Part shown: positions 1 through 33,172 of the stretch, piece after piece | Position numbering within the stretch: position 1 is the stretch's first letter | Layout: each line of letters starts with the position of its first letter | Origin: Myxococcota bacterium | GTDB taxonomy: Bacteria; Myxococcota_A; UBA9160; PR03 | Reading direction: 5' to 3' | DNA: 58,861 nucleotides | Assembly (NCBI GenBank): GCA_028284525.1 | Contig: JANQRO010000273.1 | Coordinates: 1 to 58,861 of the forward strand | The notes under the pieces: generated by a model | What the model was told of the DNA's origin: nothing | The model's input: only the letters and a program-made list of their open reading frames with translations | Database searches by the model: none | Position numbers and translations under genes: made by a program

Positions 1-248
1 CCGACCGCCACGTGAAGCGCTTCTGGGTCGTTCCCCTGGGGCTCCAGGATGCGCCGCTCGTGGTGCACCTCGACGTGCGCCTCGACGCCTCGGGGGCGCT
101 CCGAGGAGAGCCCCGCATCACGAAGCGCTCGGGGAACCCGTGGTTCGACGAGGGCGCCGTGCGCGCCGTCGAGAAGGCCGCGCCGCTCCCCGCGCCGCCC
201 GAGGCGGGCACCTGGCCCTTCGTCTTTCGCCCGGAGGATCTCGACTGA
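1..248 (+). CDS. TolA/TonB-type C-terminal domain protein, 5' end cut by the window edge
   Basis: The translation ends ...KRSGNPWFDEGAVRAVEKAAPLPAPP, which is typical of a TolA/TonB C-terminal domain. It lies immediately upstream of tolB and its stop overlaps the tolB ATG by 1 nt. Confidence 0.6.
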   Translation, partial: DRHVKRFWVVPLGLQDAPLVVHLDVRLDASGALRGEPRITKRSGNPWFDEGAVRAVEKAAPLPAPPEAGTWPFVFRPEDLD

Positions 249-1597
249 TGGGGCATGCCCCGCATCGCAGGACCCGTCGACGCGTGTGGGCCCTGGGCCT
301 CGCGGCAGCCGCGCTCTGCGCGGGCCCGGTTTCGTCGGCCCGCGCCCAGAACCCCTCGGTGATCGTCACCAACCCCGACGCCCGGGCCTTCCGCGCCGCG
401 GTGCAGCGCTTCGCCGTGGCGCGCGACGACGTCGACGCCACCGCGTTTCGCGAGAAGCTCTCCGCCGCCCTCGAGTTCTCGAGCGTCTTCACCCCGATCG
501 ACGAGGGCGCCTTTCTCGGGCCGCTGCAGAGCGAGGGGCTCTCCGCCACGACCCCGCGCTGTGTCGACTGGACGCCGATCGGCGCCGACGCGCTGGTGGA
601 GGGCCAGTTCGAGGGCGCCACGGGCGGCGAGTTTGCCGTCGAGTTCCGCGCCATCGACGTGGTGCGCTGTCGCTCGGCGCTCCGCAAGCGCTACACGGGC
701 CGCGTCGCCGACGCCGACCTGATCGCCCGCAAGATCGCCGACGACATCGTTGGCGCGTTCACCGGCACGCCCGGCGTCTCGTCCACCGAGCTGACCTTCC
801 TCTCCGACCGCGGGGGCCACACCGAGGTCTTCGTGATGGAGGTCGACGGCACCCGGGCTCGCGCCGTCACCCGCGACCGCGCGCTCAAGGGTTTTCCCAA
901 TTGGTCGGTCGACGGCTCGTCCATCGTGTACATGTCGTACCAGTACCGCCGTCTGCCCCAGCTCTTCCGCATCGTGCGGCGGGGCAACGCGAAGGCCGGC
1001 CGCATCCTCCAGGGGCTGCGGCCCGGCACCGCGGTGTACCGGGGTGTGCACGCCCCCGACGGCGATTCGCTGGCCGTGGTGGTGAGCATCGACGGGGTGC
1101 CGGATCTGTTCCGCACCGATCTCACCGGCAACCGGCCCCAGCGCCTCACCCGCAACCCCGCCATCGACGTCTCGCCAAGCTGGTCTCCCGACGGCGGCCA
1201 GCTCGTCTTCGTGTCCGACCGCACCGGATCGCCCCAGCTCTACATCATGAACGCCGACGGCTCGGGCACACGCCGGCTCACCTTCGACGGCGGGTACAAT
1301 TCCGCGCCCGCGTGGTCGCCCGACGGGCGCTGGATCGCCTACGAAGCACGTCTCCAGGGCCAGTTCGACATCTGGCTGATCGACCCGATGGGCCAGGTCA
1401 ACGTGCCGCTCGTCGACCACCCCCGCAGCGACGAGTCGCCCGCCTGGTCGCCGGACAGCCGCAAGCTCGCCTTCCACTCGACGCGCCGGGGTCGCCCCGA
1501 CATCTACGCCGTCGATGTCGACGGGCGCAATCTGGTGCGGTTGACCCAGGGGGAAGGGGCCAACAAACAGCCTCACTGGGGACCGCGACCCCAGTGA
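248..1597 (+). CDS. tolB: Tol-Pal system beta-propeller protein TolB
   Basis: Internal ATG at 248 of ORF 140..1597 gives a signal peptide (RRRVWALGLAAAALCAGPVSSARA). Repeated PxWSPDG propeller motifs follow (SPSWSPDGGQLVF, APAWSPDGRWIAY, SPAWSPDSRKLAF). Confidence 0.9.
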   Translation: MGHAPHRRTRRRVWALGLAAAALCAGPVSSARAQNPSVIVTNPDARAFRAAVQRFAVARDDVDATAFREKLSAALEFSSVFTPIDEGAFLGPLQSEGLSATTPRCVDWTPIGADALVEGQFEGATGGEFAVEFRAIDVVRCRSALRKRYTGRVADADLIARKIADDIVGAFTGTPGVSSTELTFLSDRGGHTEVFVMEVDGTRARAVTRDRALKGFPNWSVDGSSIVYMSYQYRRLPQLFRIVRRGNAKAGRILQGLRPGTAVYRGVHAPDGDSLAVVVSIDGVPDLFRTDLTGNRPQRLTRNPAIDVSPSWSPDGGQLVFVSDRTGSPQLYIMNADGSGTRRLTFDGGYNSAPAWSPDGRWIAYEARLQGQFDIWLIDPMGQVNVPLVDHPRSDESPAWSPDSRKLAFHSTRRGRPDIYAVDVDGRNLVRLTQGEGANKQPHWGPRPQ

Positions 1598-1641
1598 TAG
1601 ACTCTCGCGCCCGCGCCGCCGGGGGCGAGCCGGAGGAGAGG

Positions 1642-2478
1642 ATGGGGAAGAGCGACCAGCACGCGAGGCGGCGGGTCGAAACGAAGCGGAGGGCCGCCCT
1701 CGGGGTGTGCACGGCTCTTCTGGTGTTGGCCGGCGGCTGCGTGTCGGTCGCGGAGCACCGCAAGCTCGAGGAGCGCGTGCTCTCGCAGCAGCGCAGTCCC
1801 TCCGGCGAGTCGCGCCGGGTCGTCGCCGACCTCCGCGCCGAGCTGCGCCGTCTCGAAGAGCGCGTGAACCAGCTGGAAGGCCGGCTCGAGAGCGCCGAGC
1901 ACGAGACCCGCCGCGCCCAGGAGGAGGCGCGCCGGGCGCGCCAGGAGGCCGCGCGTGTCGGATCGGGCACAGCACCGGGCACGTCCCCGCCCCCCGGCGA
2001 TGGATCGACGCCGACCGGCAACGCGGCGGCAGCTCCGCCCGACGAGCCGAGCGCGCCGGCCGCCGTCGACGGTCGTCCTCCCCCCGCGCCGAGCTCCGAG
2101 GTGAGCGCCTACCGCAACGCCCGCACCGATTGGCGGGAGGGACGCTGGGACGATTGCATTGACCGCTTCGGGAGCTTCTTGCAAACTTACCCGGCTTCGG
2201 GCTACGCCGACGATGCCGCGTTCTGGCTCGCGGACTGCCACTTCAAGCGGGGGGACTACAAGACGGCGGTGGTCCGATTCGACGACGTCGTGGTGCGCTA
2301 TCCCGAGGGAGAGCGGTCCGCCGACGCGCTCTACCGCCAAGGAGAAGCCCTGCTTCGGCTCGGACCCGGATACAGCAAGGCCGCGAGTCGCGCCTTCGAG
2401 CGCGTGATGAAGGAGTATCCCTCGTCGCCGCGGGCGCAGGAAGCGAAGAGACAGCTCGAACTGCTCAGGCCGCGTTGA
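1642..2478 (+). CDS. cpoB: CpoB/YbgF-like Tol-Pal associated protein (lipobox, coiled coil, Pro/Ala linker, TPR)
   Basis: ATG at 1642 is preceded by GGAGGAGAG. The protein has the lipobox LVLAGGC, a coiled-coil segment (ELRRLEERVNQLEGRLESAEHE) and a C-terminal YbgF-type TPR region (FLQTYPASGYADDAAFWLADCHFKRGDY...). The upstream part of ORF 49..2478 is an alternate-frame artefact over tolB. Confidence 0.8.
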   Translation: MGKSDQHARRRVETKRRAALGVCTALLVLAGGCVSVAEHRKLEERVLSQQRSPSGESRRVVADLRAELRRLEERVNQLEGRLESAEHETRRAQEEARRARQEAARVGSGTAPGTSPPPGDGSTPTGNAAAAPPDEPSAPAAVDGRPPPAPSSEVSAYRNARTDWREGRWDDCIDRFGSFLQTYPASGYADDAAFWLADCHFKRGDYKTAVVRFDDVVVRYPEGERSADALYRQGEALLRLGPGYSKAASRAFERVMKEYPSSPRAQEAKRQLELLRPR

Positions 2479-2491
2479 AGGAACAACGAAG

Positions 2492-2854
2492 GTGAGAAAG
2501 CGCGAACTCGAACGCTTGCGGAAGCTCCTGGAAGGGCAGCGCGAACAGCTGGTGGGCAACGCCAAGCGCGCTCTCACCGGCGACATCCACCTCGACCCCG
2601 ACGACTTTCCCGACGAGATGGACGCGGCCTCCTCGGAGATCAGCCTCGCCTTCACGGGGCGGCTTCGCGAACGCGAGCGACACCTGCTGGCCAAGGTCGA
2701 CCAGGCCCTCGCCAAGATCGACGCCGGGGAATACGGCCTCTGCGAAGCCTGCGGCGAGGAGATCGGGATCAAGCGCCTCGAGGCGCGCCCGGTGGCCGAG
2801 CTCTGCATCGACTGCAAGGCCGAGCAAGAGCGCCTCGAACGCAACATCGGCTAG
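2492..2854 (+). CDS. DksA/TraR family C4-type zinc-finger protein
   Basis: The 120-aa product has a coiled-coil N-terminal part and the zinc-finger motif CEACGEEI...CIDC. Confidence 0.85.
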   Translation: MRKRELERLRKLLEGQREQLVGNAKRALTGDIHLDPDDFPDEMDAASSEISLAFTGRLRERERHLLAKVDQALAKIDAGEYGLCEACGEEIGIKRLEARPVAELCIDCKAEQERLERNIG

Positions 2855-2908
2855 GGGCTGACTCTGCCCGCTGCCTCCTCCCTCGACGCCGACACCCTGG
2901 TCCTCGGG

Positions 2909-3895
2909 GTGGAGAGCTCCTGTGACGAGATGGCCGCCGCGATCGTGCGCGGAGGTCGCGATGTCGTGGCGAGCGTGGTGCACCACCAGGTCGAGGTGCA
3001 CGCGCCCTACGGCGGGGTGGTGCCCGAGCTGGCCTCTCGCGACCACGCGCGCGCCGTGTCCCAGGTGGTCGACGCGGCTCTCGAGCGCGCGGGGGTCGGG
3101 CCACGCGGCCTCGGCGGGGTGGCGGTCACCGCGGGTCCCGGTCTCCTGGGCTCGCTGCTCGTGGGCCTCTGCTTTGCCAAGGCCTTTGCGTACCGCTTCG
3201 GGCTGCCGCTGGTCGGGGTGCATCACCTCTCGGGGCATCTCGCCTCCGCCGAGATCGCCGACCCCGCGTTGCGCGCGCCCTACCTCGGGCTCGTCGTCTC
3301 GGGGGGCCACACGGCGCTCTACCGGATCGAAGACGAGGCGGCGCCGCGGCTCCTGGGCGAGACCCGGGACGACGCCGTCGGCGAAGCCTTCGACAAGGTC
3401 GCGAAGCTCCTGGGCTTGCCGTATCCCGGGGGTCCCGCCCTCGCGGCGTTGGCCGAGGAGGGCGACGAGACCGCGATCGACTTTCCCCGCCCGATGGCGG
3501 GACGGCCGGGCTACGAGTTCTCGTACAGCGGGCTGAAGACCGCCGTCGCCCTCGAGGTGGAGGCGCGCTCGCCCCTCCGCGACGGGGAGCGGGCCGACAT
3601 CGCCGCGTCGTTCCAGGCTGCGGCCACCGATGTGCTGGTCGCGAAATCGCAGCGCGCCCTCGGCGACGAGGGGCTCGACCAGCTCGCGGTGGTGGGGGGT
3701 GTCGCGGCCAACGCGCGGCTGCGCGAACGCCTCGTAGACGCGGCGGCGCGCGAAGGCTTTCGCGCCGTGTTCCCGCCGCTGGCGCTCTGCACCGACAACG
3801 CCGCGATGATCGCTTCGGCGGGCTACGCGGGGCTCGCTCGGGGCGAGCGGGCGGAGCTCTCCCTCGGCGCCTTCGCCCGCGCACCGCTCGGGTGA
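2909..3895 (+). CDS. tsaD: tRNA N6-adenosine threonylcarbamoyltransferase TsaD
   Basis: Shows VESSCDEMAAAIV, HHLSGH and other Kae1/TsaD motifs. The GTG at 2909 is the first canonical start. The conserved N-terminus (LVLGVESSCDE) continues upstream with only CTG codons (2858, 2864, 2897), so the true start is uncertain. Confidence 0.88.
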   Translation: MESSCDEMAAAIVRGGRDVVASVVHHQVEVHAPYGGVVPELASRDHARAVSQVVDAALERAGVGPRGLGGVAVTAGPGLLGSLLVGLCFAKAFAYRFGLPLVGVHHLSGHLASAEIADPALRAPYLGLVVSGGHTALYRIEDEAAPRLLGETRDDAVGEAFDKVAKLLGLPYPGGPALAALAEEGDETAIDFPRPMAGRPGYEFSYSGLKTAVALEVEARSPLRDGERADIAASFQAAATDVLVAKSQRALGDEGLDQLAVVGGVAANARLRERLVDAAAREGFRAVFPPLALCTDNAAMIASAGYAGLARGERAELSLGAFARAPLG

Positions 3896-10791: not shown

Positions 10792-11156
10792 GGGGGCGAT
10801 CGGCTTCGACGGGTGGTCGAAGGCGAGCGCTGCGTGCCGAGATGGTCGCGCTCTCGTTAATCAGACGGCATTGTTGGTAGTTCATACCTGCCGACGACAA
10901 CTACGCACTCGCTGCTTAGCTAAACCCTGAGCTAGCGACGCCCGTCCCCGACGTCTCCTAGGGGGTCGCGGGCGTCATCAGGAGACTGGTCCCCGGCCGC
11001 TGGCAGACCGCATCCGGGGACGAGAGCCAAGTCTGCCTGGGTAGCGCTTCTCCCGGCGCCGCGACTGGCGCTACCGAGATCGGGCGGCACCTACGCACGT
11101 AGACGCGCTGGCTGGACGCCATTCGGACGCGGGTTCGATTCCCGCCGCCTCCACCA
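10792..11156 (+). ncRNA. ssrA: tmRNA (transfer-messenger RNA, one-piece)
   Basis: The 5' GGGGGCG pairs with the 3' CGCCTCC-ACCA, giving a G3:U pair. The T-arm is GCGGG-TTCGATT-CCCGC. The tag ORF gcc gac gac aac tac gca ctc gct gct tag (10890-10919) encodes ADDNYALAA. Length is 365 nt. Confidence 0.9.
11130..11156 (+). repeat. att core copy 1 (the functional 3' end of tmRNA)
   Basis: cgggttcgattcccgccgcctccacca. It is identical to 35862-35888. Confidence 0.85.
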
Positions 11157-14772: not shown

Positions 14773-15654
14773 CTAGGTAGCGGGGCGTTCAAGCTCGAGA
14801 ACGGATCTCCCGTTGTCGAAGAGTGTGACCGTTCCGGAGGATTCAGAGATGGCAAAGGCGATGGCGTCCGTCACCCGCGTGATCGCGGCGGCGGCGGCGT
14901 GTCGGGCGCCGAGTCCGCGTCGCAGTCGCACGTTCTTGGTGGGCGCATCGAGATACGTACCGACGGACTCCACTACACCGTCTCGGTTGACGACCACGGC
15001 GCCGTCGAGCGCGCAGAATTCCCGCAGCGACTCTGCGAACTCCGGACTGTGGATGCTGCGCACGCGGCGCGCGTGTCCTTTGCACGGGTTGAGGATGAGC
15101 TGACGCAGGAAGGGCTCGAGCTGCTCCTTCGCGCCAAGGACGAAGATCGCACCGATGGGCTTGCCTTCGCGGCCCTGCGCGGCAAAGCGCAGCGCGAGCT
15201 CCAGCAGACGCCCGAATTCCTTGGGGCCCACCAGCCCCTTCGTGCGATCCAGGTCTTGGTTGCGAAGCCACGGGAAGTCGCGGTTGGGCTTCGTGACGAG
15301 CATCAGATCGAGCTGACCCGAACCCGCGATGCCGGACAGGCACATGACGGTTTCGTCGAGCTCGATGTAGCCGCGGAGGGTGGCCGAATAGAGTCCCAGA
15401 TTGATCTGACTCATTCGAGTGAGGTTGGCGCTGGGAATCGGGAGCACGAGGTCCCTCAGGCGACCGCTCGGGGTTTCTCCCTCGTCCCGAACGAGCCAGA
15501 TCAGCCGCTCGGGCACCCGATGGGCAAGCAGGAGCTGACTTTGCACTTCGTCGGCGAGGACGAGCGCCGTATGGATTCGCAGAGCCTCCGCGAGGGCGAA
15601 CGCGTGCGAGTTGAACGCCGCCGCTTCTTCTCGTCTCGACCGGACAAGCGCCAC
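14773..15654 (-). CDS. Soluble diadenylate cyclase (DAC/DisA_N domain) with an N-terminal regulatory domain, CdaZ/DacZ-like architecture
   Basis: The C-terminal half carries DAC motifs: GAIFVLG, DGAVVVNRDG, GLGARHAAAAAITRVTDAIAFAISESSGTVTLFDNG. There is no TM segment. About 150 aa precede the DAC domain. Confidence 0.75.
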   Translation of the reverse strand: MALVRSRREEAAAFNSHAFALAEALRIHTALVLADEVQSQLLLAHRVPERLIWLVRDEGETPSGRLRDLVLPIPSANLTRMSQINLGLYSATLRGYIELDETVMCLSGIAGSGQLDLMLVTKPNRDFPWLRNQDLDRTKGLVGPKEFGRLLELALRFAAQGREGKPIGAIFVLGAKEQLEPFLRQLILNPCKGHARRVRSIHSPEFAESLREFCALDGAVVVNRDGVVESVGTYLDAPTKNVRLRRGLGARHAAAAAITRVTDAIAFAISESSGTVTLFDNGRSVLELERPAT

Positions 15655-24838: not shown

Positions 24839-25090
24839 CTGGAACCGAGGCCGGCCGCCGGGGTCAGCGCCGGCTCCGTGCCACCCGCGCGTCGTCGATC
24901 GCGCACGCTCTGTCCCTCCGATGGGCGCGCGCGGCGCGCCGAGACAACGCTTCTAGAAGTCGCGTCGCCAAAACAGGCCGACACCCGATTCCCCGCTCGA
25001 GCGCTGCTCGCCAACTGGCGGATGGGTTCCGCCCTGGAGAAGCGCCATACCGAGCGCCAGAAGCGCTGCCCGGACACCTTCTCTAGAGTG

Positions 25091-26399
25091 CTAGAGCGAG
25101 GTCATCAGCATCGTGGCGATGCCGAGGAAGCTGAAGAATCCGACGATATCCGTGACGGTGGTGAGAATGATCGAGGACGATTGTGCGGGATCCTGCCTCA
25201 GGAGCGTCAGGACCATCGGGATCGCTGCCCCGGAGATGCCGGCCAAGGTCATGGACAGCACCATCGAGATCCCGATCACCAGTGCGAGTCCGAGCGAGCG
25301 ACTCCACGCGTAGACGGCCAGGGCCGTGGTGAGCGCGACCGCAACCCCGTTCCCCGCACCCGCAAAGCCCTCCTTCACCACGACACGCGCCCAGTGACGC
25401 AGCCGTACTTCCCGTAGCGCGAGCCCGCGCATCGTGACAGCGAGCGCTTGGGCGCCTGTATTCCCCGATTGTCCAGCGACCACCGGGAGGAGGACCGCGA
25501 GCGCGGTGACGCTTGCGATGGTGTCCTCGAAGAGGCCGACCACGGACGCAGCGAGGAACGCCGTCAAGAGATTGATCTGCAACCAAGGAAGCCGTTTGCG
25601 GATCGCGAAGAAAGGGGGGGGAGAGCGCGCGCTCCTGTTCACTCGCGCCAACCATCGTGACGGCTCCAGCGGTCGCTTCCGCCTGGGCCGCTTGGATCAG
25701 TTCTCGTTGGCGCAACACACCTTGGAGACATCCTTCGTGATCCACCACCGGCAAACTCGCGACGCGGTGGCTCTCGAACACCTCGAGAATCTCCTCGCGG
25801 GACGCGATCGTCTGCACTGAGACCGGTGCAGTGGAGACCAGAGTGCTGAGCTGTGCCTTGGCGTCTGCCGCGATGACCGAATCAAGAGGGACGGTCCCCA
25901 CGAGCCGGGTCTCTTCGTCGACGAGAAACACATCCTGGATGTGGCGACCGCGATAGCGACGAAGCGCACGCACGACGTCGCGGATCACCGCATCGGGGCG
26001 AAAACTTGTGGCCCGCGGGTCCATCAGCGCACCGGCCGTGTCTCCAGGATACTCCATCAGCTCGCGGAACTCGCGCGCGAGCCCTGGGTCAACGAGCTCT
26101 AGGCACGCGTCGCGCTTCTCGGCGTCGACCCGCGACAGCAACGCCGCCGCGCGAGCTGGATTGAGATCGCGAAGAACGGATGCCGCGCGATCCGCAGGCA
26201 GTGCCGCCAGAGTATCCGCTGCCGTGTCGGGTGTGAAGCGTCGGAACGCCGCGACGGTGATCGCGAGCGGTTGCGCGCCGAGAAACATCGCGATCTCTTG
26301 CCCGTTCGCCGATTCCATAAGCGAAACCGCTTCGTCGGGGGACTCCCGGAGCAAAAGGTTGGCGAGGTCGCGATCGATGCTCGAGTTCTTACGCGCCAT
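25091..26399 (-). pseudogene. mgtE: Mg2+ transporter MgtE, interrupted by a +1 frameshift in a C8 homopolymer
   Basis: The N-domain and CBS pair are in the frame of ORF 25083..26399 up to ...ERALSPP. The TM domain (FFAIRKRLPWLQINLL...PVVAGQSGNTGAQALAVTMRG...) is in the frame of ORF 25091..25651. Removing one C from the run restores a 435-aa MgtE. Confidence 0.8.
25614..25621. repeat. G8/C8 homopolymer at the mgtE frameshift
   Basis: aaa-gggggggg-agag on the + strand. This is exactly where the reading frame switches. Confidence 0.9.
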
Positions 26400-27219
26400 G
26401 GTTCCCGTCCTCGCGGTCGGCCCCTCGGATCGCCTCGAGCACGGCAGCCGCGCCCACCGTCAACAGCGTTCCCAAAGCCGCCCCGGTGTCGTCGTCTCGC
26501 CGTTTCGGAAGGATCTCGTTCTCCAGCTCGCGCAGCGTTCGATACCGGACCGCTCCCAGGTATCGCCCGTCGTCGTCGACGACCGGGAGAGACGCGACGC
26601 GCTGCCAGGCCGGGTGGGCGAGGAGGGTGGCACGGTCGGCGGCGGCGGTGATCCGCATCGGATCGCGGACCATCAACTCCGAGAGCAAGTCGCCCGCACG
26701 CGCTCGCAGGAGCTCCCGGAGATTCAGAACCCCGACCAGGCGTTGTTCGCGATCGACGACATAGAGGTTGTAGCGCGCGAACGAGGCGGCCTCGCGAACA
26801 CGCTGAAGCGCCGAGCGCGCCGTAAGGTCGCTCGGGAGTGCAAGGACTTCCGGATCCATGACCGCACCTGCGCTGTCTGGTCGCGAGTCGAGGAGCGTTT
26901 GGAGTCGTTGAGCGGCGCGCCGATCCAGCTGGGCGAGGATAGTTTCGCGATCGTGGGGGTCGAGCGGTCGGAGGAGTCGTGCAGCTACGCTCGGCTCGAG
27001 AGCAGCCACCAGCTCGGCGCGCCGCGCGTGTGCAAGCACGCTCACAACGCGCCGAGCGATCTCTGGAGACAGGCTCATCCACACCGCGGCGGCTTTCGGC
27101 GCCGGGCCGTGGGAGAGCGCGACGGCGATCTCATCGGGCGAGCGGCGCTCCAAAGTTGCGGCTGCGCGCGATGGGTATCGCTCGAATACGTGCTCCGAGA
27201 GCCTTCTCTCCAGTGCCAC
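26389..27219 (-). CDS. Stand-alone MgtE_N plus CBS-pair protein (no membrane domain)
   Basis: GTG at 27219 with GGAGGA 8 nt upstream. Shows MgtE-N-like helices and a CBS pair (AVMDPEVLALPSD...YVVDREQRLVGVLNLRELL...LPVVDDDGRYLGAVRY). The stop overlaps the mgtE start. Confidence 0.7.
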   Translation of the reverse strand: MALERRLSEHVFERYPSRAAATLERRSPDEIAVALSHGPAPKAAAVWMSLSPEIARRVVSVLAHARRAELVAALEPSVAARLLRPLDPHDRETILAQLDRRAAQRLQTLLDSRPDSAGAVMDPEVLALPSDLTARSALQRVREAASFARYNLYVVDREQRLVGVLNLRELLRARAGDLLSELMVRDPMRITAAADRATLLAHPAWQRVASLPVVDDDGRYLGAVRYRTLRELENEILPKRRDDDTGAALGTLLTVGAAAVLEAIRGADREDGNHGA

Positions 27220-27312
27220 GAGCTCGATCCTCCACGCAGGCGGGCAATGATACGCTATCGCCCGCGCGGGAAGTCGATCCTGACTCCGCGGCGAGCGAGA
27301 GAAACATACACG

Positions 27313-28143
27313 ATGGACCAAATGTTCGATCTGGCCACATGGCGCGAGGTAGTGGTTCGTTCCTTGTCCGAGCTCGGAGTGAGCCTCGCAACGTTTCTTC
27401 CCAGCCTGGTAGGTGCTCTGACTCTATTGGCTGTTGGGTGGCTGGTGGCGCGTCTGCTGGAGGTGGTCGCGAGAAGGGGACTAAGCGCCGTAGGCATCGA
27501 CCGTGCGGCGGCGCGGCTCAGGCTCGACCAAGGTCTCGAGCGTGCGGAGGTTGGTCTTAGCGTCTCCCAGCTCATATCCCGGCTAGTGTTCTGGCTGGTT
27601 TTTCTCGTCTTCCTGCTTTCAGGCATCGAAGCGCTGGGTTTGAGTGCCGTTACGGCGACGCTCGATCGTCTCATCTCCTTCATCCCAAACGTGATCGCCG
27701 CGTTTCTCATCGCTATCGGTGGCCTCGGCCTGGGTCGATTCGTCGCGACGCTGATCACGTCGAGTTCAGCCGCGTTCGGTTTCGCGAGCGCACAGCGATT
27801 GGGCGTCGCGGCCCAGGTCCTCGTCGCGGGCCTCGCGATTTCGATCGCTCTCGAGCAACTCGGGATCGACACCGACTTGCTCTTGGTTCCTTTCACGGTT
27901 CTCCTCGCCACCGCGGGTTTCGCGATGGGACTCTCCTTCGCACTAGGCGCTCGGCCCTTGGTCACGCACATTCTCGCCGGGCATTTTTTGAAGCAATCGC
28001 TTCCGCGAGACCGTGTGGTAGAGATCGATGGACGAAGAGGCTTTGTCGAACGAGTGGGAGCAATCGACACCTTGCTCCGCGATGGCGAACAACGATGGAG
28101 CGTCCCGAACGGCGAGATTCTCGAACGCGTTGTGGTTCGATGA
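27313..28143 (+). CDS. Mechanosensitive-channel-like membrane protein (TM-helix repeats plus a short beta domain)
   Basis: ATG at 27313. Several TM helices are followed by LPRDRVVEIDGRRGFVERVGAIDTLLRDGEQRWSVPNGEI, which resembles the start of the MscS beta domain. The rest of track ORF 26008..28143 is the antisense of the MgtE_N-CBS gene (26389-27219) and of the mgtE 5' end. Confidence 0.65.
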   Translation: MDQMFDLATWREVVVRSLSELGVSLATFLPSLVGALTLLAVGWLVARLLEVVARRGLSAVGIDRAAARLRLDQGLERAEVGLSVSQLISRLVFWLVFLVFLLSGIEALGLSAVTATLDRLISFIPNVIAAFLIAIGGLGLGRFVATLITSSSAAFGFASAQRLGVAAQVLVAGLAISIALEQLGIDTDLLLVPFTVLLATAGFAMGLSFALGARPLVTHILAGHFLKQSLPRDRVVEIDGRRGFVERVGAIDTLLRDGEQRWSVPNGEILERVVVR

Positions 28144-28710: not shown

Positions 28711-29187
28711 CGTTGAGTCCTCTCGATGGCGGAGAAATGTGTTGTCGCAGTGCGGCAGGCTGCCGCCGTCTCGCGAGAGCATCCGCCTCAGGCGCGGGAG
28801 CGCAAGCTCGGTCGACTCGTTGTCCGTGCCCCACACTTCTCGAGCCGCCCCGTTCGGGGTGGCTGTCGAAAGAGGCGCGATCGATTGCGGCCGGCTCCGA
28901 GACTCGATGCCCGACGGAAGCGGAAGTGGATGAGTCCGGTCGGGACCTCGCAGGCACGGTCGATCGTCTCGAGGAGGTCTGCGCCACCGCGGTCCACGCT
29001 TCGGCCCCCGAGCGAGCGTGGCTCGAGGACGGCGACCGGGCCTGGATGCCGCAGCGGGGGATGACGAGACAAAGCGCCACCCTGGGGCGGGCCGGCTTTG
29101 CACACGGGACCCGCTCCCGGAGCACCGAGGGCGAGTTCTACATCAGCCCCGACGGCCACGCCGCTGGCCGTTGTGAGGAGCGGTTTC

Positions 29188-30351
29188 GTGCCTAGCTGGG
29201 TCTCTGTTGCGGGGTGGCTCGACGCGCTCGATATCGCGCTCGTGGCCAGCTTCGTCTGGTTGGCGATCCGCTATTTCCGCCGTACACGCAGCCGCGCAGC
29301 CGCCGTCGGGCTCGCCTTGATCGCCGGCATCTACCTCGTGGCTCGAGCTCTCGACCTTGAGCTCACCGCTTCGATCTTGCAGGGGTTCTTCGCGGCGCTC
29401 GTACTCGTAGTCGTGGTGGTCTTTCAGGACGATCTTCGTCGCCTGTTCGAACAGCTCGGATCGTGGTGGCGTGGTCGCGAAACAGGAACCGCCGAGACGG
29501 AGACGCTGGATCAATTGGTTCGCGCCGTCGCGAGACTCGCCGGGTCGCGCACCGGCGCATTGATTGTGCTTGCCGGACAAGAACCGCTCGACCGCCACAC
29601 CGAAGGAGGCGTGGTGCTCGGCGGCCGGGTGAGCGAACCGCTCCTGTTGTCTCTCTTCGACGCTAGTTCTCCGGGTCACGACGGGGCGGTGGTTCTCGAC
29701 GGCCAGGACGTCGAACGCTTCGCGGTCCACCTCCCGCTGTCCGCCAACCGCGCGGCGCTCGGTCCTGGCGGCACCCGCCATGCGGCAGCTCTCGGACTCG
29801 CGGAGCGCTCGGACGCGATCTGCATCGCCGTCTCCGAGGAGCGGGGAACGGTCTCCGTCGCGCAGGACGGGGTGATCCGCACTCTCTCCCGCCCGGAGGA
29901 CCTGATCATCGAGTTGCGCGCGGCGTTTCGGGAAGAGCCGGAGAACCGGCAATGGTGGCAGGGCGGCATCGGTCTGGACGCCGCGGCGGCTATTCTCGTG
30001 GCTTTGCTCCTATGGGTCGTCTTCGTCCCCGGATCAGACCTGGACGAGGAGACCCTTTCGGTACCGGTCACCGTCTCGAACCTCCCGGATGATCTGGAGC
30101 TTGAGTCGGTGGAACCGGCGGCGCTCGATGTGACCTTCCGGGGGCTGCGCCGGGACCTGCTAGTCGCGCAACGCGGCGGGGTTTCGGTCCACATCGATGC
30201 CTATTTGGCGCGTCTGGGACGCCGTACCTTCACCGTCTCGGCACAGGATGTGAGAAAGCCCGAGTCGATTGCGGTGGTGACGGTGACACCGGAGAAAGTG
30301 CGCCTTTCCCTACGCGCTGCCAAGGGTGGCGACGGGGCGACACCTGAGTGA
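29188..30351 (+). CDS. cdaA: Membrane diadenylate cyclase CdaA fused to a YbbR (CdaR-like) domain
   Basis: GTG at 29188. N-terminal TM helices (WLDALDIALVASFVWLAIRYF...) precede the DAC motifs GALIVLAG, HDGAVVLDG and GTRHAAALGLAERSDAICIAVSEERGTVSVAQDG. An extra TM helix (AAAAILVALLLWVVFV) and a YbbR-like repeat (LSVPVTVSNLPDDLELESVEPAALDVTFRG...) follow. Confidence 0.8.
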   Translation: MPSWVSVAGWLDALDIALVASFVWLAIRYFRRTRSRAAAVGLALIAGIYLVARALDLELTASILQGFFAALVLVVVVVFQDDLRRLFEQLGSWWRGRETGTAETETLDQLVRAVARLAGSRTGALIVLAGQEPLDRHTEGGVVLGGRVSEPLLLSLFDASSPGHDGAVVLDGQDVERFAVHLPLSANRAALGPGGTRHAAALGLAERSDAICIAVSEERGTVSVAQDGVIRTLSRPEDLIIELRAAFREEPENRQWWQGGIGLDAAAAILVALLLWVVFVPGSDLDEETLSVPVTVSNLPDDLELESVEPAALDVTFRGLRRDLLVAQRGGVSVHIDAYLARLGRRTFTVSAQDVRKPESIAVVTVTPEKVRLSLRAAKGGDGATPE

Positions 30352-30451: not shown

Positions 30452-31477
30452 CTAGTTCAAAGCGTTGTCAGCGTCCGCAAGAACGCCTTGGAAATCTTCG
30501 ACGGAACTCGCGACCCTTCGAGGCGAATCGAACGCCGCGATGTGGAACAATCCGTCTCCCTCGTTGACAAGGGGAAGCTCGGTCCGTCCGATGATGACGC
30601 CATTGTGCGAAGCGACGACGGCCGATTCGTCCGCGCCGAGCGGGTCGCCGACCACACCGAGTTCGTCCCCGGTCTTGACGGGGGCTCCCAGTCGAGCCCG
30701 CCGCCGGAGAATCCCGCTCTCTGGTGCGCGCACCCAATGGCTGGACTGCGCGATGAACGGTTCGACGGAACGACGAGAGCGACCGGGATTGATCATTCCC
30801 AAGGCGCCCATCACCCGAAGCGTCCCCCGAACACCCGCCTGGATCGCTTCCTCGTCGAAACGAAGTGCCTCGCCGCCTTCGTACAAGAGCATTGGGATCC
30901 CTCGCTCCAGCACGGCCTGTCGAAGAGAGTTGTCGCGGAGGTTGGAGTTCACGATGACCGGCACACCAAACGCCCGAGCGAGACGTTCGGTTTCGGGGTC
31001 TTCGAGATAAGCCCGTAGCTGCGGAAGATTGGACCGATGGACCGCCGCGGTGTGGAGATCGACCCCGTGCGTCGCGTTCTCGACGACTTCCGAGATGAAT
31101 AGGTGTGCGAGCCTCGACGCGAGCGAACCTGTAGCGGAGCCTGGGAAAGAGCGATTGAGGTCCCGCCGATCGGGCAGGTAGCGCGAGAGCCCCACGAATC
31201 CGTACAGGTTCACGATTGGAACCGCGATCAGCGTCCCGCGGAGCCGGTCTAGGCTCCGGTGCGCCAGGACACGTCGAATGATCTCGACACCCGCGATTTC
31301 GTCGCCGTGAACCGCGGCGCAAACAAAGAGGCGAGGGCCTTCCAGCTTTCCGTTGACGACTTCGATCGGCAGGGCGATTTCGTTTCCACTCACGCGCTTT
31401 CCGAGCGGGATCTGGATCCGATGCCGTTCCCCACGCGGAACGGCGTTCCCAGCGATCACAACCTCGCCGTCAGCCAC
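30452..31477 (-). CDS. Succinylglutamate desuccinylase/aspartoacylase (AstE/AspA) family metallo-carboxypeptidase-like protein
   Basis: Shows AAVHGDEIAG, DLNRSFPG and VDLHTA zinc-ligand contexts. The start overlaps the stop of the upstream protease gene by 8 nt. Confidence 0.85.
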   Translation of the reverse strand: MADGEVVIAGNAVPRGERHRIQIPLGKRVSGNEIALPIEVVNGKLEGPRLFVCAAVHGDEIAGVEIIRRVLAHRSLDRLRGTLIAVPIVNLYGFVGLSRYLPDRRDLNRSFPGSATGSLASRLAHLFISEVVENATHGVDLHTAAVHRSNLPQLRAYLEDPETERLARAFGVPVIVNSNLRDNSLRQAVLERGIPMLLYEGGEALRFDEEAIQAGVRGTLRVMGALGMINPGRSRRSVEPFIAQSSHWVRAPESGILRRRARLGAPVKTGDELGVVGDPLGADESAVVASHNGVIIGRTELPLVNEGDGLFHIAAFDSPRRVASSVEDFQGVLADADNALN

Positions 31478-31937
31478 GGCTTGTCTTCTTGCGGGTCTTC
31501 TTCTTTCTCTTTTTCGGAGACTGGACCATGCGACGATCGGGATCGATCATGAAGGGCCCGGACAGTGCCGTTCGGCCCAAGAGCATCCGATGGATCATCC
31601 GGCCGCGATCGACCAGGCTGAGCTCAACCTTTCTTTCGACGCGGCCCAGCTTCATCGAGGTTTTGACGAAATAGCGTGTCTCGGTCTCGCCGTTGCTCGA
31701 GCGGACCCGGGAACGACGATGGATTGGCGCCACGACCCGGATTCGACGGTCTCGTTTCTCGCGGTGCAGCACGACGTCGAACCGGAGCCGCTTCCGCGGC
31801 AGCTCGACAATATTCTCCACGTGAAGCGCGCTCGTCCGCGCGCCGGTATCCACCTTCGCACGGAGACGGCGAACTCCCCAGTCGGGAAGGTCCACATACT
31901 CGGTCCAGCCGATGAGAACGGGCTCCTCGCGTACCAC
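31470..31937 (-). CDS. RimB-like retropepsin-fold 'ATP-dependent zinc protease' (PF05618-like)
   Basis: Reads IGWTEYVDLPDWGV.RLRAKVDTGARTSALH...LGRTAL. It has a strongly basic tail (KKRKKKTRKK). The start overlaps the rimK stop by 1 nt. Confidence 0.8.
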   Translation of the reverse strand: MVREEPVLIGWTEYVDLPDWGVRRLRAKVDTGARTSALHVENIVELPRKRLRFDVVLHREKRDRRIRVVAPIHRRSRVRSSNGETETRYFVKTSMKLGRVERKVELSLVDRGRMIHRMLLGRTALSGPFMIDPDRRMVQSPKKRKKKTRKKTSRG

Positions 31938-33172
31938 TATTCGCTCGGTACCGGATCAGCACCTTCGACGACGGGAAGGTCCGCTTTTCGGCGCTTTCTG
32001 CGCTTACGGCGCGGCGGGGCAAGACTCCGGAGGGTGAGCATCTTGCCAAAACAAAGCAGAATGTCGCCTGCGAGGATTTCACGGTCGTTGCGTGGGTTTG
32101 GGATCGAAACGCTATCGCGTTGGATCGTGAGGATGATTACATCCCGCTCGCGCAAGCCGGAACTCCGCACGGTCTTGCCGCACAGCTCCGATCGCTCGTC
32201 AACGGGCACCTCCATGACACCGTAGCCGCTTTGCAAGGTGAGACGCTGGCGAAGATCGATGTCGGGAAACAGCACCTCCTCCTCGATGAGGGCGATGATC
32301 TCACCCGCCACGTCGATTCCGGTTGCGCTCTCGATTCCTTCCAGCCCCGGCGAGGAGTTCACCTCCATGAGGACGGGCCCGTCCTTTCCCTCCAGCATGT
32401 CGACGCCGGCGACCCGGAGCCCCATAATTTGGGCGGCGTGGACGGCTACACGTTGGTATTCGTTGTCGAGATCGACGATCTCAGCCGACCCACCGCGGTG
32501 GATGTTGCTTCTAAACTCGTCCTCTTTCGCAGTGCGGCGCATCGCCGCGACGACGCGGGATCCCACCACGAACGCGCGAATGTCGCGGCCCTTGCTCTCT
32601 TTGACGAAGCGCTGCAACAACACGCTCATCTTCGCGGGCCCGGAGAGAGTCTCGATGATGGCTTCCGCGACATTGGTCGTGTCGGCAAGGATTACGCCGA
32701 CGCCCTGGGTGCCTTCCAGAAGCTTGATGACAACCGGTGTCCCGCCCATCCGTTCGATACCGGGGAGGATTTCGGACGTGTGACGGACGAAGAGCGTGGT
32801 AGGCATACCCACTCGATGGCGGCTCAGCGCCTGCAACGCGCGGAGTTTGTCTCGAGAGACTGAGATCGCGTGCGATGGATTGACACAAAAGACACCCATC
32901 TGCTCGAACTGGCGAACGACCGCCGTCCCGAACGACGTGATGGACGCGCCGATGCGGGGAATGACGGCGTCGTACTGCGTGAGCTTTTTGTTCTTGAAGT
33001 AGAGGCGAGGCGATCCGCTTTCCACTTCGATCGAGAAGGACAGGGTGTTCAGCACCTTGGCATCGTGCCCGCGCGCGGTTGCTGCCTCCCGCAGTCGCCG
33101 AGTGCTGTAAAGCCGCGGGCCACGCGAAAGGATCGCGATCTTTAGGGACTGGGCACTGCGAGGATCGTTCAT
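31937..33172 (-). CDS. rimK: RimK-type ATP-grasp alpha-L-glutamate ligase fused to a C-terminal TrkA_C (RCK_C) domain
   Basis: The ATP-grasp core reads VVIKLLEGTQGVGV...EVNSSPGLEGIE. About 110 extra residues follow (YGVMEVPVDERSELCGKTVRSSGLRERDVIILTIQRDSVSIPNPRNDREILAGDILLCFG), matching the RCK_C pattern. It ends in a basic tail RRKRRKRRK. Confidence 0.88.
   Translation of the reverse strand: MNDPRSAQSLKIAILSRGPRLYSTRRLREAATARGHDAKVLNTLSFSIEVESGSPRLYFKNKKLTQYDAVIPRIGASITSFGTAVVRQFEQMGVFCVNPSHAISVSRDKLRALQALSRHRVGMPTTLFVRHTSEILPGIERMGGTPVVIKLLEGTQGVGVILADTTNVAEAIIETLSGPAKMSVLLQRFVKESKGRDIRAFVVGSRVVAAMRRTAKEDEFRSNIHRGGSAEIVDLDNEYQRVAVHAAQIMGLRVAGVDMLEGKDGPVLMEVNSSPGLEGIESATGIDVAGEIIALIEEEVLFPDIDLRQRLTLQSGYGVMEVPVDERSELCGKTVRSSGLRERDVIILTIQRDSVSIPNPRNDREILAGDILLCFGKMLTLRSLAPPRRKRRKRRKADLPVVEGADPVPSE

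What the first reader, a model, noticed from the sequence alone, without database searches (positions are those of the whole stretch)
29188..30351. CdaA and a CdaR-type YbbR domain fused in one polypeptide
In Firmicutes the cyclase CdaA and its YbbR-domain regulator CdaR are separate products of the cdaA-cdaR-glmM operon. Here a single ORF encodes N-terminal TM helices and a DAC domain (HDGAVVLDG, GTRHAAA). An additional TM helix (AAAAILVALLLWVVFV) follows, then one YbbR-like repeat that would lie on the other side of the membrane. No glmM is adjacent. The fusion implies obligate cis-regulation of the cyclase by an extracytoplasmic YbbR module.
Basis: partly seen in the sequence, partly recalled or inferred. 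Interest (0 to 1): 0.6.

Follow-up and report, generated by a model that had tools for sequence, protein, structure and literature searches.

The report
CdaA cyclase with fused YbbR domain
This is a real gene for a membrane-bound maker of the bacterial signal c-di-AMP, joined in one chain to a single outward-facing copy of the domain found in its usual partner CdaR; the fused design is common in uncultured Gram-negative bacteria, so it is an ordinary and still uncharacterised family member.

Summary
Observation confirmed. Window 29188-30351 (+) is one uninterrupted 387-aa ORF. It has three N-terminal TM helices (Pfam CdaA_N), a DAC domain, a fourth TM helix and a ~95-aa beta domain.

The window's own tail scores below the Pfam YbbR cut-off (12.5-18.4 vs 22.3 bits), but it is a YbbR domain:
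- A family profile hits only solved YbbR structures (Listeria CdaR 5hqh, E 2.8e-7).
- hhalign matches domain I of this genome's own CdaR (91%).
- The seven best Foldseek PDB matches to an AlphaFold model (pLDDT 86) are all YbbR structures.

It is not an assembly artefact. Full-length homologues of the same length are numerous. The same open frame occurs in 24 of 30 related genomes and in at least a dozen differently labelled phyla.

It is also not peculiar. The scan had already noted this fusion about 60 times on other DNA.

Points added here:
- The genome also holds a canonical cdaA-cdaR-glmM operon on another contig, so this gene is an old paralogue (40% identical), not a replacement.
- All 77 fused proteins examined read RH[A/S/T] instead of RHR, and 73 read SEERG where canonical CdaA reads SEET/S.

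"Obligate cis-regulation" is plausible but untested. Verdict: new member of a known, uncharacterised kind; modest interest.

The parts
29175..29180 (+). Shine-Dalgarno-like GAGGAG, 7 nt before the GTG start
   Evidence: Read directly from the sequence.
29188..30351 (+). Whole gene, 387 codons plus stop: CdaA-type diadenylate cyclase fused to TM4 and one YbbR domain
   Evidence: ORF. The 120 best database homologues listed are mostly 380-410 aa, with 58-76% identity. An exact copy is on record as a called protein of 387 aa (P0002).
29218..29436 (+). N-terminal three-helix membrane domain (residues 11-83; helices about 10-33, 36-54, 58-78)
   Evidence: Pfam CdaA_N PF19293, 38.4 bits against a cut-off of 23.8. 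Supported by hydropathy and by the AF2 helices.
29521..29874 (+). DAC (diadenylate cyclase) catalytic domain, residues 112-229
   Evidence: Pfam DAC 110.7 bits. Genome search gives the same coordinates. Foldseek of the full model: the 50 best listed matches are DAC-domain structures (CdaA/DacA/CdaM/DacM), TM-score on target about 0.9 for most. phmmer against PDB CdaA chains gives E 1e-27 to 1e-22.
29680..29688 (+). DGA active-site motif (D165-G166-A167, inside HDGAVV)
   Evidence: HDGA in 77 of 77 fused and 31 of 31 canonical sequences. The motif is defined in PMC8573169.
29776..29784 (+). RHA in place of the canonical RHR motif (R197-H198-A199, inside GTRHAAA)
   Evidence: Aligned to GTRHRAA of solved CdaA. 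0 of 77 fused-clade proteins have RHR, against 31 of 31 canonical ones.
29833..29847 (+). SEERG loop (S216-G220); Arg219 sits where canonical CdaA has Thr/Ser
   Evidence: 73 of 77 fused proteins read SEERG; canonical proteins read SEET[A/S/G/T/Q] or SEESA. Aligned to VSEETGG of solved CdaA.
29968..30030 (+). Fourth transmembrane helix (residues about 261-281), running from cytoplasm to periplasm
   Evidence: Hydropathy peak of 2.5. AF2 helix 261-279. W276 and G282 are invariant in the family.
30040..30318 (+). Single extracytoplasmic YbbR-fold domain (residues 285-377), counterpart of CdaR domain I
   Evidence: Sequence profiles:
- Pfam YbbR on the window itself is sub-threshold, but matches 40 of 43 (at E <= 1) and 41 of 56 (at E <= 0.01) family members.
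- Profile A3 against the PDB hits only YbbR structures: 5hqh 2.8e-7, 2l3u 1.4e-5, 2kq1 0.003.
- hhalign against this genome's own CdaR residues 31-123: 91%, E 1.1e-6.

Fold: AF2 pLDDT 85.9, and the seven best Foldseek matches are all YbbR structures.

Best explanation
The gene encodes a four-pass inner-membrane diadenylate cyclase of the CdaA lineage. Three N-terminal helices anchor a cytoplasmic DAC domain. A fourth helix then takes the chain back across the membrane and places one YbbR domain in the periplasm. That domain is homologous to the membrane-proximal domain I of the regulator CdaR.

Shown here:
- the domain order
- the folds
- the conservation of the whole frame across hundreds of species
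- its coexistence with a separate canonical cdaA-cdaR-glmM operon

Inferred:
- The protein dimerises or oligomerises and condenses two ATP into c-di-AMP.
- TM4 packs against TM1-3, as the CdaR anchor is reported to contact the CdaA membrane domain. An envelope-side cue sensed by the YbbR domain would thereby alter cyclase oligomerisation or activity in cis.
- In this organism it acts as a second c-di-AMP source that is not genetically linked to GlmM, working beside the housekeeping CdaA.

The subfamily signature RH[A/S/T] plus SEERG probably reflects a relocated phosphate-binding arginine rather than loss of catalysis.
For: - Domains.
- Topology.
- Full-length model with a confident C-terminal domain.
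- DAC fold matches to CdaA/DacA structures.
- YbbR homology and fold. In one search the same profile finds the stand-alone CdaR gene directly after the canonical cdaA in nearly all of the relatives that carry it.
- Conservation and spread: one search gives 4126 homologues with E <= 0.001. One search gives 585 confirmed relatives in species genomes, and the top 80 span Myxococcota, 'Deltaproteobacteria'/Desulfobacterota, Binatia, Latescibacterota, Gemmatimonadota, Elusimicrobiota, Verrucomicrobia, Planctomycetes, Omnitrophota, Acidobacteriota and others. One search gives 5434 cluster representatives for the tail profile.
- Paralogy.
- Likely activity: DGA, GTRH and SEE are conserved in 77 of 77 or nearly all fused proteins. 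In two Latescibacterota chromosomes and one Syntrophales genome the fused type is the only CdaA-type DAC.
- Literature: CdaR contacts CdaA through the membrane region (PMC8573169 discussion, PMC8316131). CdaR's YbbR domains face outward (PMC10636490).
Against: - The second Arg of the RHR motif is missing. RHR-to-AAA abolishes ATP binding and activity in M. tuberculosis DisA (PMC3328451), although no single-residue mutant is reported there.
- The protein scores below NCBI's CdaA equivalog cut-off (163.7 against 188.8 bits).
- No member of the fused family has been assayed in any paper I could find.
- The direction of YbbR regulation, and even its existence, is unknown. CdaR itself has no known ligand.
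- Gene neighbourhood gives no consistent functional hint.
Confidence: 0.7

Rival explanations
1. The DAC domain is catalytically weakened or dead because RHR has become RHA. The protein would then act as a nucleotide-binding sensor, or as a partner that forms mixed oligomers with the canonical CdaA and modulates it, rather than as an independent cyclase.
For: - 0 of 77 fused proteins keep RHR.
- The RHR motif is needed for ATP binding in DisA (PMC3328451).
- The fused gene co-occurs with a canonical CdaA in 24 of 30 relatives and in this genome.
- It scores below the CdaA equivalog cut-off.
Against: - DGA, GTRH and SEE are all under strong conservation.
- An Arg appears at the neighbouring SEE-R-G position in 73 of 77 fused proteins, which looks compensatory.
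- In Latescibacterota and Syntrophales genomes no canonical CdaA is present. The only other DAC there is a DacZ-like protein, whose counterpart in this window also reads RHA.
Confidence: 0.15
2. The YbbR domain is not a regulator of catalysis. It would instead be a placement or anchoring module, for example tethering the cyclase to peptidoglycan or to an envelope complex, while activity is controlled elsewhere.
For: - No ligand or signal is known for any YbbR domain (PMC9259658, PMC10636490).
- The fold resembles the RNA-binding protein L25/TL5 (PMC10636490), which is not a classical sensor fold.
- One-repeat and two-repeat versions both exist.
Against: - Genetic data for stand-alone CdaR show changes in c-di-AMP level when it is removed (PMC9259658; the review PMC10636490).
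- GLRR and LGRRTF are strongly conserved in the close subfamily, but only G37, R40 and G62 remain near-invariant in the diverse set. This points to a specific binding surface, which fits either reading.
Confidence: 0.13
3. The single ORF is an assembly or sequencing artefact (lost stop or frameshift between cdaA and cdaR), or a very recent fusion of this genome's own two genes.
For: In the canonical operon, cdaA and cdaR overlap by a few bases. A one-base error could therefore in principle fuse such a pair.
Against: - The same frame and length recur in independent assemblies from many studies and in 24 of 30 relatives.
- The intact canonical cdaA and cdaR lie elsewhere in this genome.
- The fused protein is only 40% identical to the own CdaA.
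- Its tail shows no significant pairwise similarity to the own CdaR.
Confidence: 0.01

Closest known systems
CdaA (DacA/YbbP) membrane diadenylate cyclase of Firmicutes (B. subtilis, L. monocytogenes, S. aureus; PDB 4rv7, 6hvl, 6huw, 6gyw, full-length 9g69)
   Same: - Three N-terminal TM helices followed by a cytoplasmic DAC domain.
- DGA motif, GTRH and SEE loops.
- About 35% identity and TM-score about 0.9 over the catalytic domain.
   Different: - It carries an extra TM helix and a periplasmic YbbR domain.
- It reads RHA instead of RHR and SEERG instead of SEETG.
- It is not in an operon with cdaR or glmM.
- It scores below the TIGR00159 cut-off.
CdaR (YbbR) regulator, e.g. L. monocytogenes Lmo2119 (PDB 5hqh), and this genome's own CdaR on contig C176
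   Same: - A single N-in/C-out membrane anchor followed by an extracytoplasmic YbbR fold.
- The tail aligns to the membrane-proximal domain I.
   Different: - It has one repeat only. The own CdaR has about two by length (227 aa, one Pfam hit) and the B. subtilis protein has four (PMC10636490).
- It is covalently joined to the cyclase.
- It is very divergent: about 16% identity to the own CdaR domain I, with no significant pairwise BLAST match.
Two-repeat CdaA-YbbR fusions of Syntrophales, Desulfomonilia, Fibrobacteres and CPR bacteria (e.g. loci L054, L061, L066, L083, L084)
   Same: - They fall in the same fused clade in the tree, with the same TM4 and the same RH[S/T/A] signature.
- Pfam recognises DAC, CdaA_N and YbbR above threshold in them.
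   Different: - They have a second YbbR repeat, with a tail of about 255-273 aa against about 165-180 aa here.
- A DHH/DHHA1 phosphoesterase is a neighbour in 13 of 81 loci, largely among this class. It is absent next to the window gene.

Membership tests
CdaA-type diadenylate cyclase (Pfam PF19293 + PF02457; NCBIfam TIGR00159) | N-terminal three-helix membrane domain | tested here: met
   PF19293 scores 38.4 bits against a cut-off of 23.8, at residues 11-83. Three hydrophobic segments and the AF2 helices agree.
CdaA-type diadenylate cyclase (Pfam PF19293 + PF02457; NCBIfam TIGR00159) | DAC domain sequence and fold | tested here: met
   PF02457 scores 110.7 bits. Foldseek matches CdaA/DacA structures with E about 1e-14 and target TM-score about 0.9.
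CdaA-type diadenylate cyclase (Pfam PF19293 + PF02457; NCBIfam TIGR00159) | DGA active-site motif | tested here: met
   HDGA at residues 164-167, invariant in the family.
CdaA-type diadenylate cyclase (Pfam PF19293 + PF02457; NCBIfam TIGR00159) | RHR active-site motif | tested here: not met
   The protein reads R197-H198-A199. 0 of 77 fused-clade proteins have RHR, against 31 of 31 canonical ones.
CdaA-type diadenylate cyclase (Pfam PF19293 + PF02457; NCBIfam TIGR00159) | Score at or above the curated equivalog cut-off | tested here: not met
   TIGR00159 gives 163.7 bits against a cut-off of 188.8. The canonical paralogue scores 223.1.
CdaA-type diadenylate cyclase (Pfam PF19293 + PF02457; NCBIfam TIGR00159) | Genomic linkage cdaA-cdaR-glmM | tested here: not met
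   The neighbours are a hypothetical membrane protein and an AstE/AspA gene. The operon exists on contig C176 for the other paralogue.
CdaA-type diadenylate cyclase (Pfam PF19293 + PF02457; NCBIfam TIGR00159) | Synthesis of c-di-AMP from ATP | not testable with these tools
   This needs an enzyme assay or heterologous expression with LC-MS.
YbbR domain / CdaR-like module (Pfam PF07949) | Score at or above the Pfam gathering cut-off (22.3 bits) | tested here: not met
   The window protein scores 12.5 bits as a whole and 18.4 bits as the tail alone. Five of the six two-repeat relatives tested score 25.8-45.4 bits and pass.
YbbR domain / CdaR-like module (Pfam PF07949) | Profile-level homology to bona fide YbbR domains | tested here: met
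   - Profile A3 against the PDB returns only YbbR structures, the best being 5hqh at 2.8e-7.
- hhalign against the own CdaR gives 91% probability.
- The profile retrieves stand-alone multi-YbbR proteins at E <= 1e-18 that score 43-109 bits in Pfam.
- It also finds the cdaR gene after the canonical cdaA in relatives.
YbbR domain / CdaR-like module (Pfam PF07949) | YbbR fold | tested here: met
   The AF2 model of the tail has pLDDT 85.9. The seven best Foldseek PDB matches are YbbR structures, followed by L25/TL5, the known structural relative.
YbbR domain / CdaR-like module (Pfam PF07949) | Extracytoplasmic location behind a single N-in/C-out anchor | tested here: inconclusive
   Hydropathy and charge distribution predict this location. 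No dedicated topology predictor or reporter fusion was available.
YbbR domain / CdaR-like module (Pfam PF07949) | Several tandem YbbR repeats, as in CdaR | tested here: not met
   There is one repeat only: the tail after SEERG is about 167 aa, including linker and TM4.
YbbR domain / CdaR-like module (Pfam PF07949) | Modulates CdaA activity | not testable with these tools
   This needs genetics or biochemistry.

The most novel reading that the evidence does not exclude
The fused proteins would be a functionally distinct class of membrane diadenylate cyclase. They would have a rebuilt phosphate-binding site (RH[A/S/T] plus an Arg moved to the SEE-R-G loop) and a built-in periplasmic sensor. In Myxococcota-like bacteria this class would run in parallel with the housekeeping CdaA-CdaR-GlmM module, giving the cell two separately controlled c-di-AMP inputs. 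In phyla such as Latescibacterota and Syntrophales it would be the only CdaA-type source. On this reading the active-site change alters kinetics, substrate use or GlmM sensitivity, and is not neutral.
Probability: 0.2. Interest if true: 0.55.

Novelty: new member of a known kind. Interest (0 to 1): 0.3.

Why it matters
c-di-AMP control is understood almost only from Firmicutes, where cyclase, CdaR and GlmM are separate proteins and what CdaR senses is still unknown.

A natural single-chain CdaA-YbbR with only one YbbR domain is a minimal system for asking how an outward-facing YbbR domain talks to the cyclase. The fixed 1:1 stoichiometry and the absence of a separate partner should make expression, structure determination and domain-swap work easier.

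The clean RH[A/S/T]/SEERG signature gives a simple sequence rule for telling this subfamily from housekeeping CdaA in annotation. Current models either miss the YbbR tail (the precomputed Pfam entries list only DAC and CdaA_N) or leave the protein below the CdaA cut-off.

Beyond that, the finding is ordinary. It adds one more member to a large family that is already in the databases.

Tried and rejected
- Foldseek on the full-length model returned only DAC structures among the 50 listed. I therefore modelled the tail alone, from window and locus pieces.
- Pairwise BLASTP of the tail against this genome's CdaR was not significant. Only profile methods see the relationship.
- Literature searches for a description of the fusion found none in the held library. 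The obvious source, Galperin 2023, J Bacteriol 205:e0002323 (PMC10127676), is not held, so I cannot say whether the architecture is formally named there.
- The gene-neighbourhood comparison over 81 loci was noisy, because greedy ORF calling in GC-rich DNA picks antisense frames. It showed no universally conserved neighbour. A DHH/DHHA1 gene occurs in 13 loci, largely among the two-repeat relatives, and GlgE in 8. Neither is adjacent here.
- RimK+TrkA_C recurs only in close relatives, so it counts as shared descent, not independent linkage.
- The Rfam scan of the whole window found no c-di-AMP riboswitch, only a tmRNA. The promoter and terminator scan around the gene gave nothing above chance.
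- A DHHA1 search of the own genome found two hits, in frames of 882 and 509 aa, which I did not examine further.
25 of 30 genomes of the same family or order carry it, and the same-genus genome has it beside the same rimK cluster.
- Model coordinates are not exposed to scripts, so the Arg219-to-nucleotide distance and TM4 packing could not be measured.

Full report
**1. What is at the coordinates**

The + strand carries one open frame from TTG 29098 to the stop at 30349-30351. That start is supported in three ways:
- A GAGGAG box lies 7 nt upstream.
- The N-termini of 70 aligned homologues begin there, with consensus M-P-x-W-L.
- An identical 387-aa protein is on record for this contig (P0002).

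Pfam finds CdaA_N at residues 11-83 (38.4 bits) and DAC at residues 112-229 (110.7 bits). It also gives a sub-threshold YbbR match of 12.5 bits (cut-off 22.3), which nevertheless spans profile positions 1-80 of 81 at residues 292-374. NCBIfam's best hit is the CdaA equivalog TIGR00159, but below its cut-off (163.7 against 188.8 bits).

Hydropathy gives four membrane segments at about residues 9-27, 37-55, 59-80 and 261-282. Charges follow the positive-inside rule for an N-out, DAC-in, tail-out topology: RYFRRTRSR lies after TM1, LDLE after TM2 and SDLDEE after TM4.

**2. Is the tail really a YbbR domain?**

The window's own sequence does not pass Pfam's cut-off. Five independent lines say it is homologous.

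(a) Taken singly, 40 of 43 close homologues' tails match Pfam YbbR at E <= 1 (best 1.5e-7). Of a more diverse set cut from genome loci, 41 of 56 match at E <= 0.01 (best 7.9e-8).

(b) Relatives that align full-length to the window protein but carry two repeats score 25.8-45.4 bits for YbbR, above the cut-off (five of six tested). In L054 the hit at residues 297-379 is the repeat that aligns with the window's tail.

(c) A profile of the tail (A3) searched against all PDB sequences returns four hits and nothing else, all YbbR structures:
- Listeria CdaR Lmo2119 (5hqh), E 2.8e-7
- 2l3u, E 1.4e-5
- 2kq1, E 0.003
- 3lyw, E 0.91

(d) hhalign of A3 against this genome's own CdaR gives 91% probability (E 1.1e-6), onto CdaR residues 31-123. 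This is the first domain after the anchor. Run over 30 related genomes, the same profile finds the stand-alone cdaR gene directly downstream of the canonical cdaA in nearly all of those that carry it (E between 1e-14 and 1e-7; 6e-5 in this genome itself). Run over 1.84 billion cluster representatives, it retrieves multi-repeat stand-alone YbbR proteins whose match lies right behind the N-terminal anchor.

(e) An AlphaFold model of residues 283-387 has pLDDT 85.9. Its seven best Foldseek PDB matches are all YbbR structures (4qdy, 2kq1, 5hqh, 2kxy, 3lyw, 2l3u, 2kpu), with TM-scores up to 0.79. Ribosomal L25/TL5, the known structural cousin of YbbR, follows (PMC10636490).

The tail is thus a divergent single YbbR domain, equivalent to CdaR domain I.

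**3. Artefact?**

No. The 120 best database homologues listed are mostly 380-410 aa (range 313-414) and cover the whole query. A scan of species genomes confirmed 585 relatives. The 80 best span residues of about 12 to 375 or more and come from many independent studies. In 24 of 30 genomes of the same family or order, the DAC hit and the YbbR hit lie about 180 bp apart in one open frame. A 25th is cut by a contig end.

**4. Place in the genome and in evolution**

The assembly (4.7 Mb, 601 contigs, 87% complete) holds three DAC genes.

Contig C176 carries a textbook operon:
- cdaA (294 aa, RHR, 223 bits on TIGR00159)
- an overlapping cdaR (227 aa, YbbR 46 bits)
- glmM (626 bits)

The window gene is 40% identical to that CdaA over 231 residues. 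Across relatives the two classes separate cleanly by score. The canonical class scores 133-150 bits and is found in 29 of 30 genomes. The fused class scores 108-123 bits and is found in 25 of 30.

I built a FastTree of the TM+DAC part, rooted on the third DAC. The 77 fused proteins, from many phyla, form one clade (support 0.71). The 31 canonical proteins form another (support 0.95). The canonical sample is taxonomically narrow, so a single origin of the fusion is suggested but not proven.

Tails come in two sizes: about 165-180 aa (one repeat) and about 255-273 aa (two repeats).

In two Latescibacterota chromosomes and a Syntrophales genome, the fused type is the only CdaA-type cyclase, accompanied by a DacZ-like soluble DAC.

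**5. Active site**

The DGA motif is intact. The RHR motif (D171GA and R203HR define the site in B. subtilis CdaA, PMC8573169) reads RHA here. None of the 77 fused-clade proteins has RHR; they read RHA, RHS, RHT or RHC. All 31 canonical proteins have it.

The same clade reads SEERG in 73 of 77 proteins, where canonical enzymes read SEET/S. The alignment to solved CdaA confirms both correspondences.

Replacing all of RHR by AAA abolishes ATP binding in M. tuberculosis DisA (PMC3328451). No single-residue data were found. The coupled change, together with the fused type being the sole CdaA-type enzyme in some genomes, makes a relocated arginine more likely than a dead enzyme. This is inference.

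**6. Mechanism**

Shown: the domain order, the folds, the predicted topology and the conservation.

Inferred from the Firmicute system:
- The DAC domains must pair to make c-di-AMP.
- CdaR contacts CdaA through the membrane region, and its YbbR domains face outward (PMC8573169, PMC8316131, PMC10636490).
- CdaR can raise or lower output depending on species (PMC10636490, PMC9259658).

In the fused protein, TM4 plus YbbR has exactly the orientation of CdaR's anchor plus domain I. The simplest reading is a built-in CdaR-like module acting in cis.

What it senses is unknown. Conserved GLRR and LGRRTF motifs mark a candidate binding surface in the close subfamily; only G37, R40 and G62 remain near-invariant in the diverse set.

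Whether GlmM acts on this paralogue is untested.

**7. Comparison and novelty**

The closest known system is CdaA plus CdaR. The gene works like a covalent version of that pair. As a family member, it meets the fold and domain criteria of both parts. It fails the RHR motif, the curated CdaA cut-off, the Pfam YbbR cut-off for this sequence, and the operon context.

The architecture is detectable with standard models in relatives and is abundant in public data. Earlier agents of this scan noted it about 60 times on other genomes, and their conclusions match mine.

I found no paper describing or assaying it in the held library. The census by Galperin (2023) could not be read.

Verdict: real, correctly read, ordinary. 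It is a new member of a known but uncharacterised kind.

Noticed in passing
window 14776-15654 (-): A third, soluble DAC protein of 293 aa. It has an unassigned N-terminal half of about 150 aa and the motifs LDGA and GARHAAA, so it also lacks RHR. Its best NCBIfam match is the archaeal-type DacZ (100 bits, far below the 430 cut-off). A protein of similar DAC score and frame size (about 75-81 bits) sits beside the fused CdaA in G020 and in Latescibacterota and Syntrophales genomes.
   Followed up: partly
genome contig C176 (locus L001) 148-3091: Canonical cdaA-cdaR-glmM operon of the same organism. cdaA 148-1032 has RHR, cdaR 1026-1709 overlaps the cdaA stop, and glmM is at 1727-3091.
   Followed up: yes
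window 30455-33172 (-): A tightly packed rimK / Zn-protease (PF05618) / AstE-AspA operon converges on the cyclase gene. The RimK carries an extra C-terminal TrkA_C (RCK_C) domain, a domain type known from my own knowledge to bind c-di-AMP in K+ transport regulators. The cluster lies near the fused gene again in the same-genus genome and in two Myxococcota loci (L006, L039). That pattern is consistent with shared descent only.
   Followed up: partly
window 25086-27321 (-) and 27313-28143 (+): Two adjacent MgtE_N+CBS proteins lie here. The longer one (438 aa) lacks a Pfam hit to the MgtE membrane domain although it clusters with full-length MgtE of other loci, so mgtE may be frameshifted. A 276-aa protein with mechanosensitive-channel TM helices follows.
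   Followed up: no
window 10792-11156 (+): tmRNA gene (Rfam RF00023, 150 bits). It is the only Rfam family at gathering score in the window.
   Followed up: no
loci L054, L061-L066 and others (13 of 81 loci): A DHH/DHHA1 phosphoesterase of about 350 aa lies next to the fused cyclase in 13 of 81 loci, largely among the two-repeat relatives. A GlgE maltosyltransferase is adjacent in 8 loci. Neither occurs next to the window gene.
   Followed up: partly
PDB entry 9g69 chain C: The best PDB sequence match to the window protein is a 292-aa full-length 'diadenylate cyclase' chain. It aligns from the membrane domain through the DAC domain (query residues 13-230). A full-length CdaA structure may therefore exist against which TM4 packing could be modelled.
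   Followed up: no
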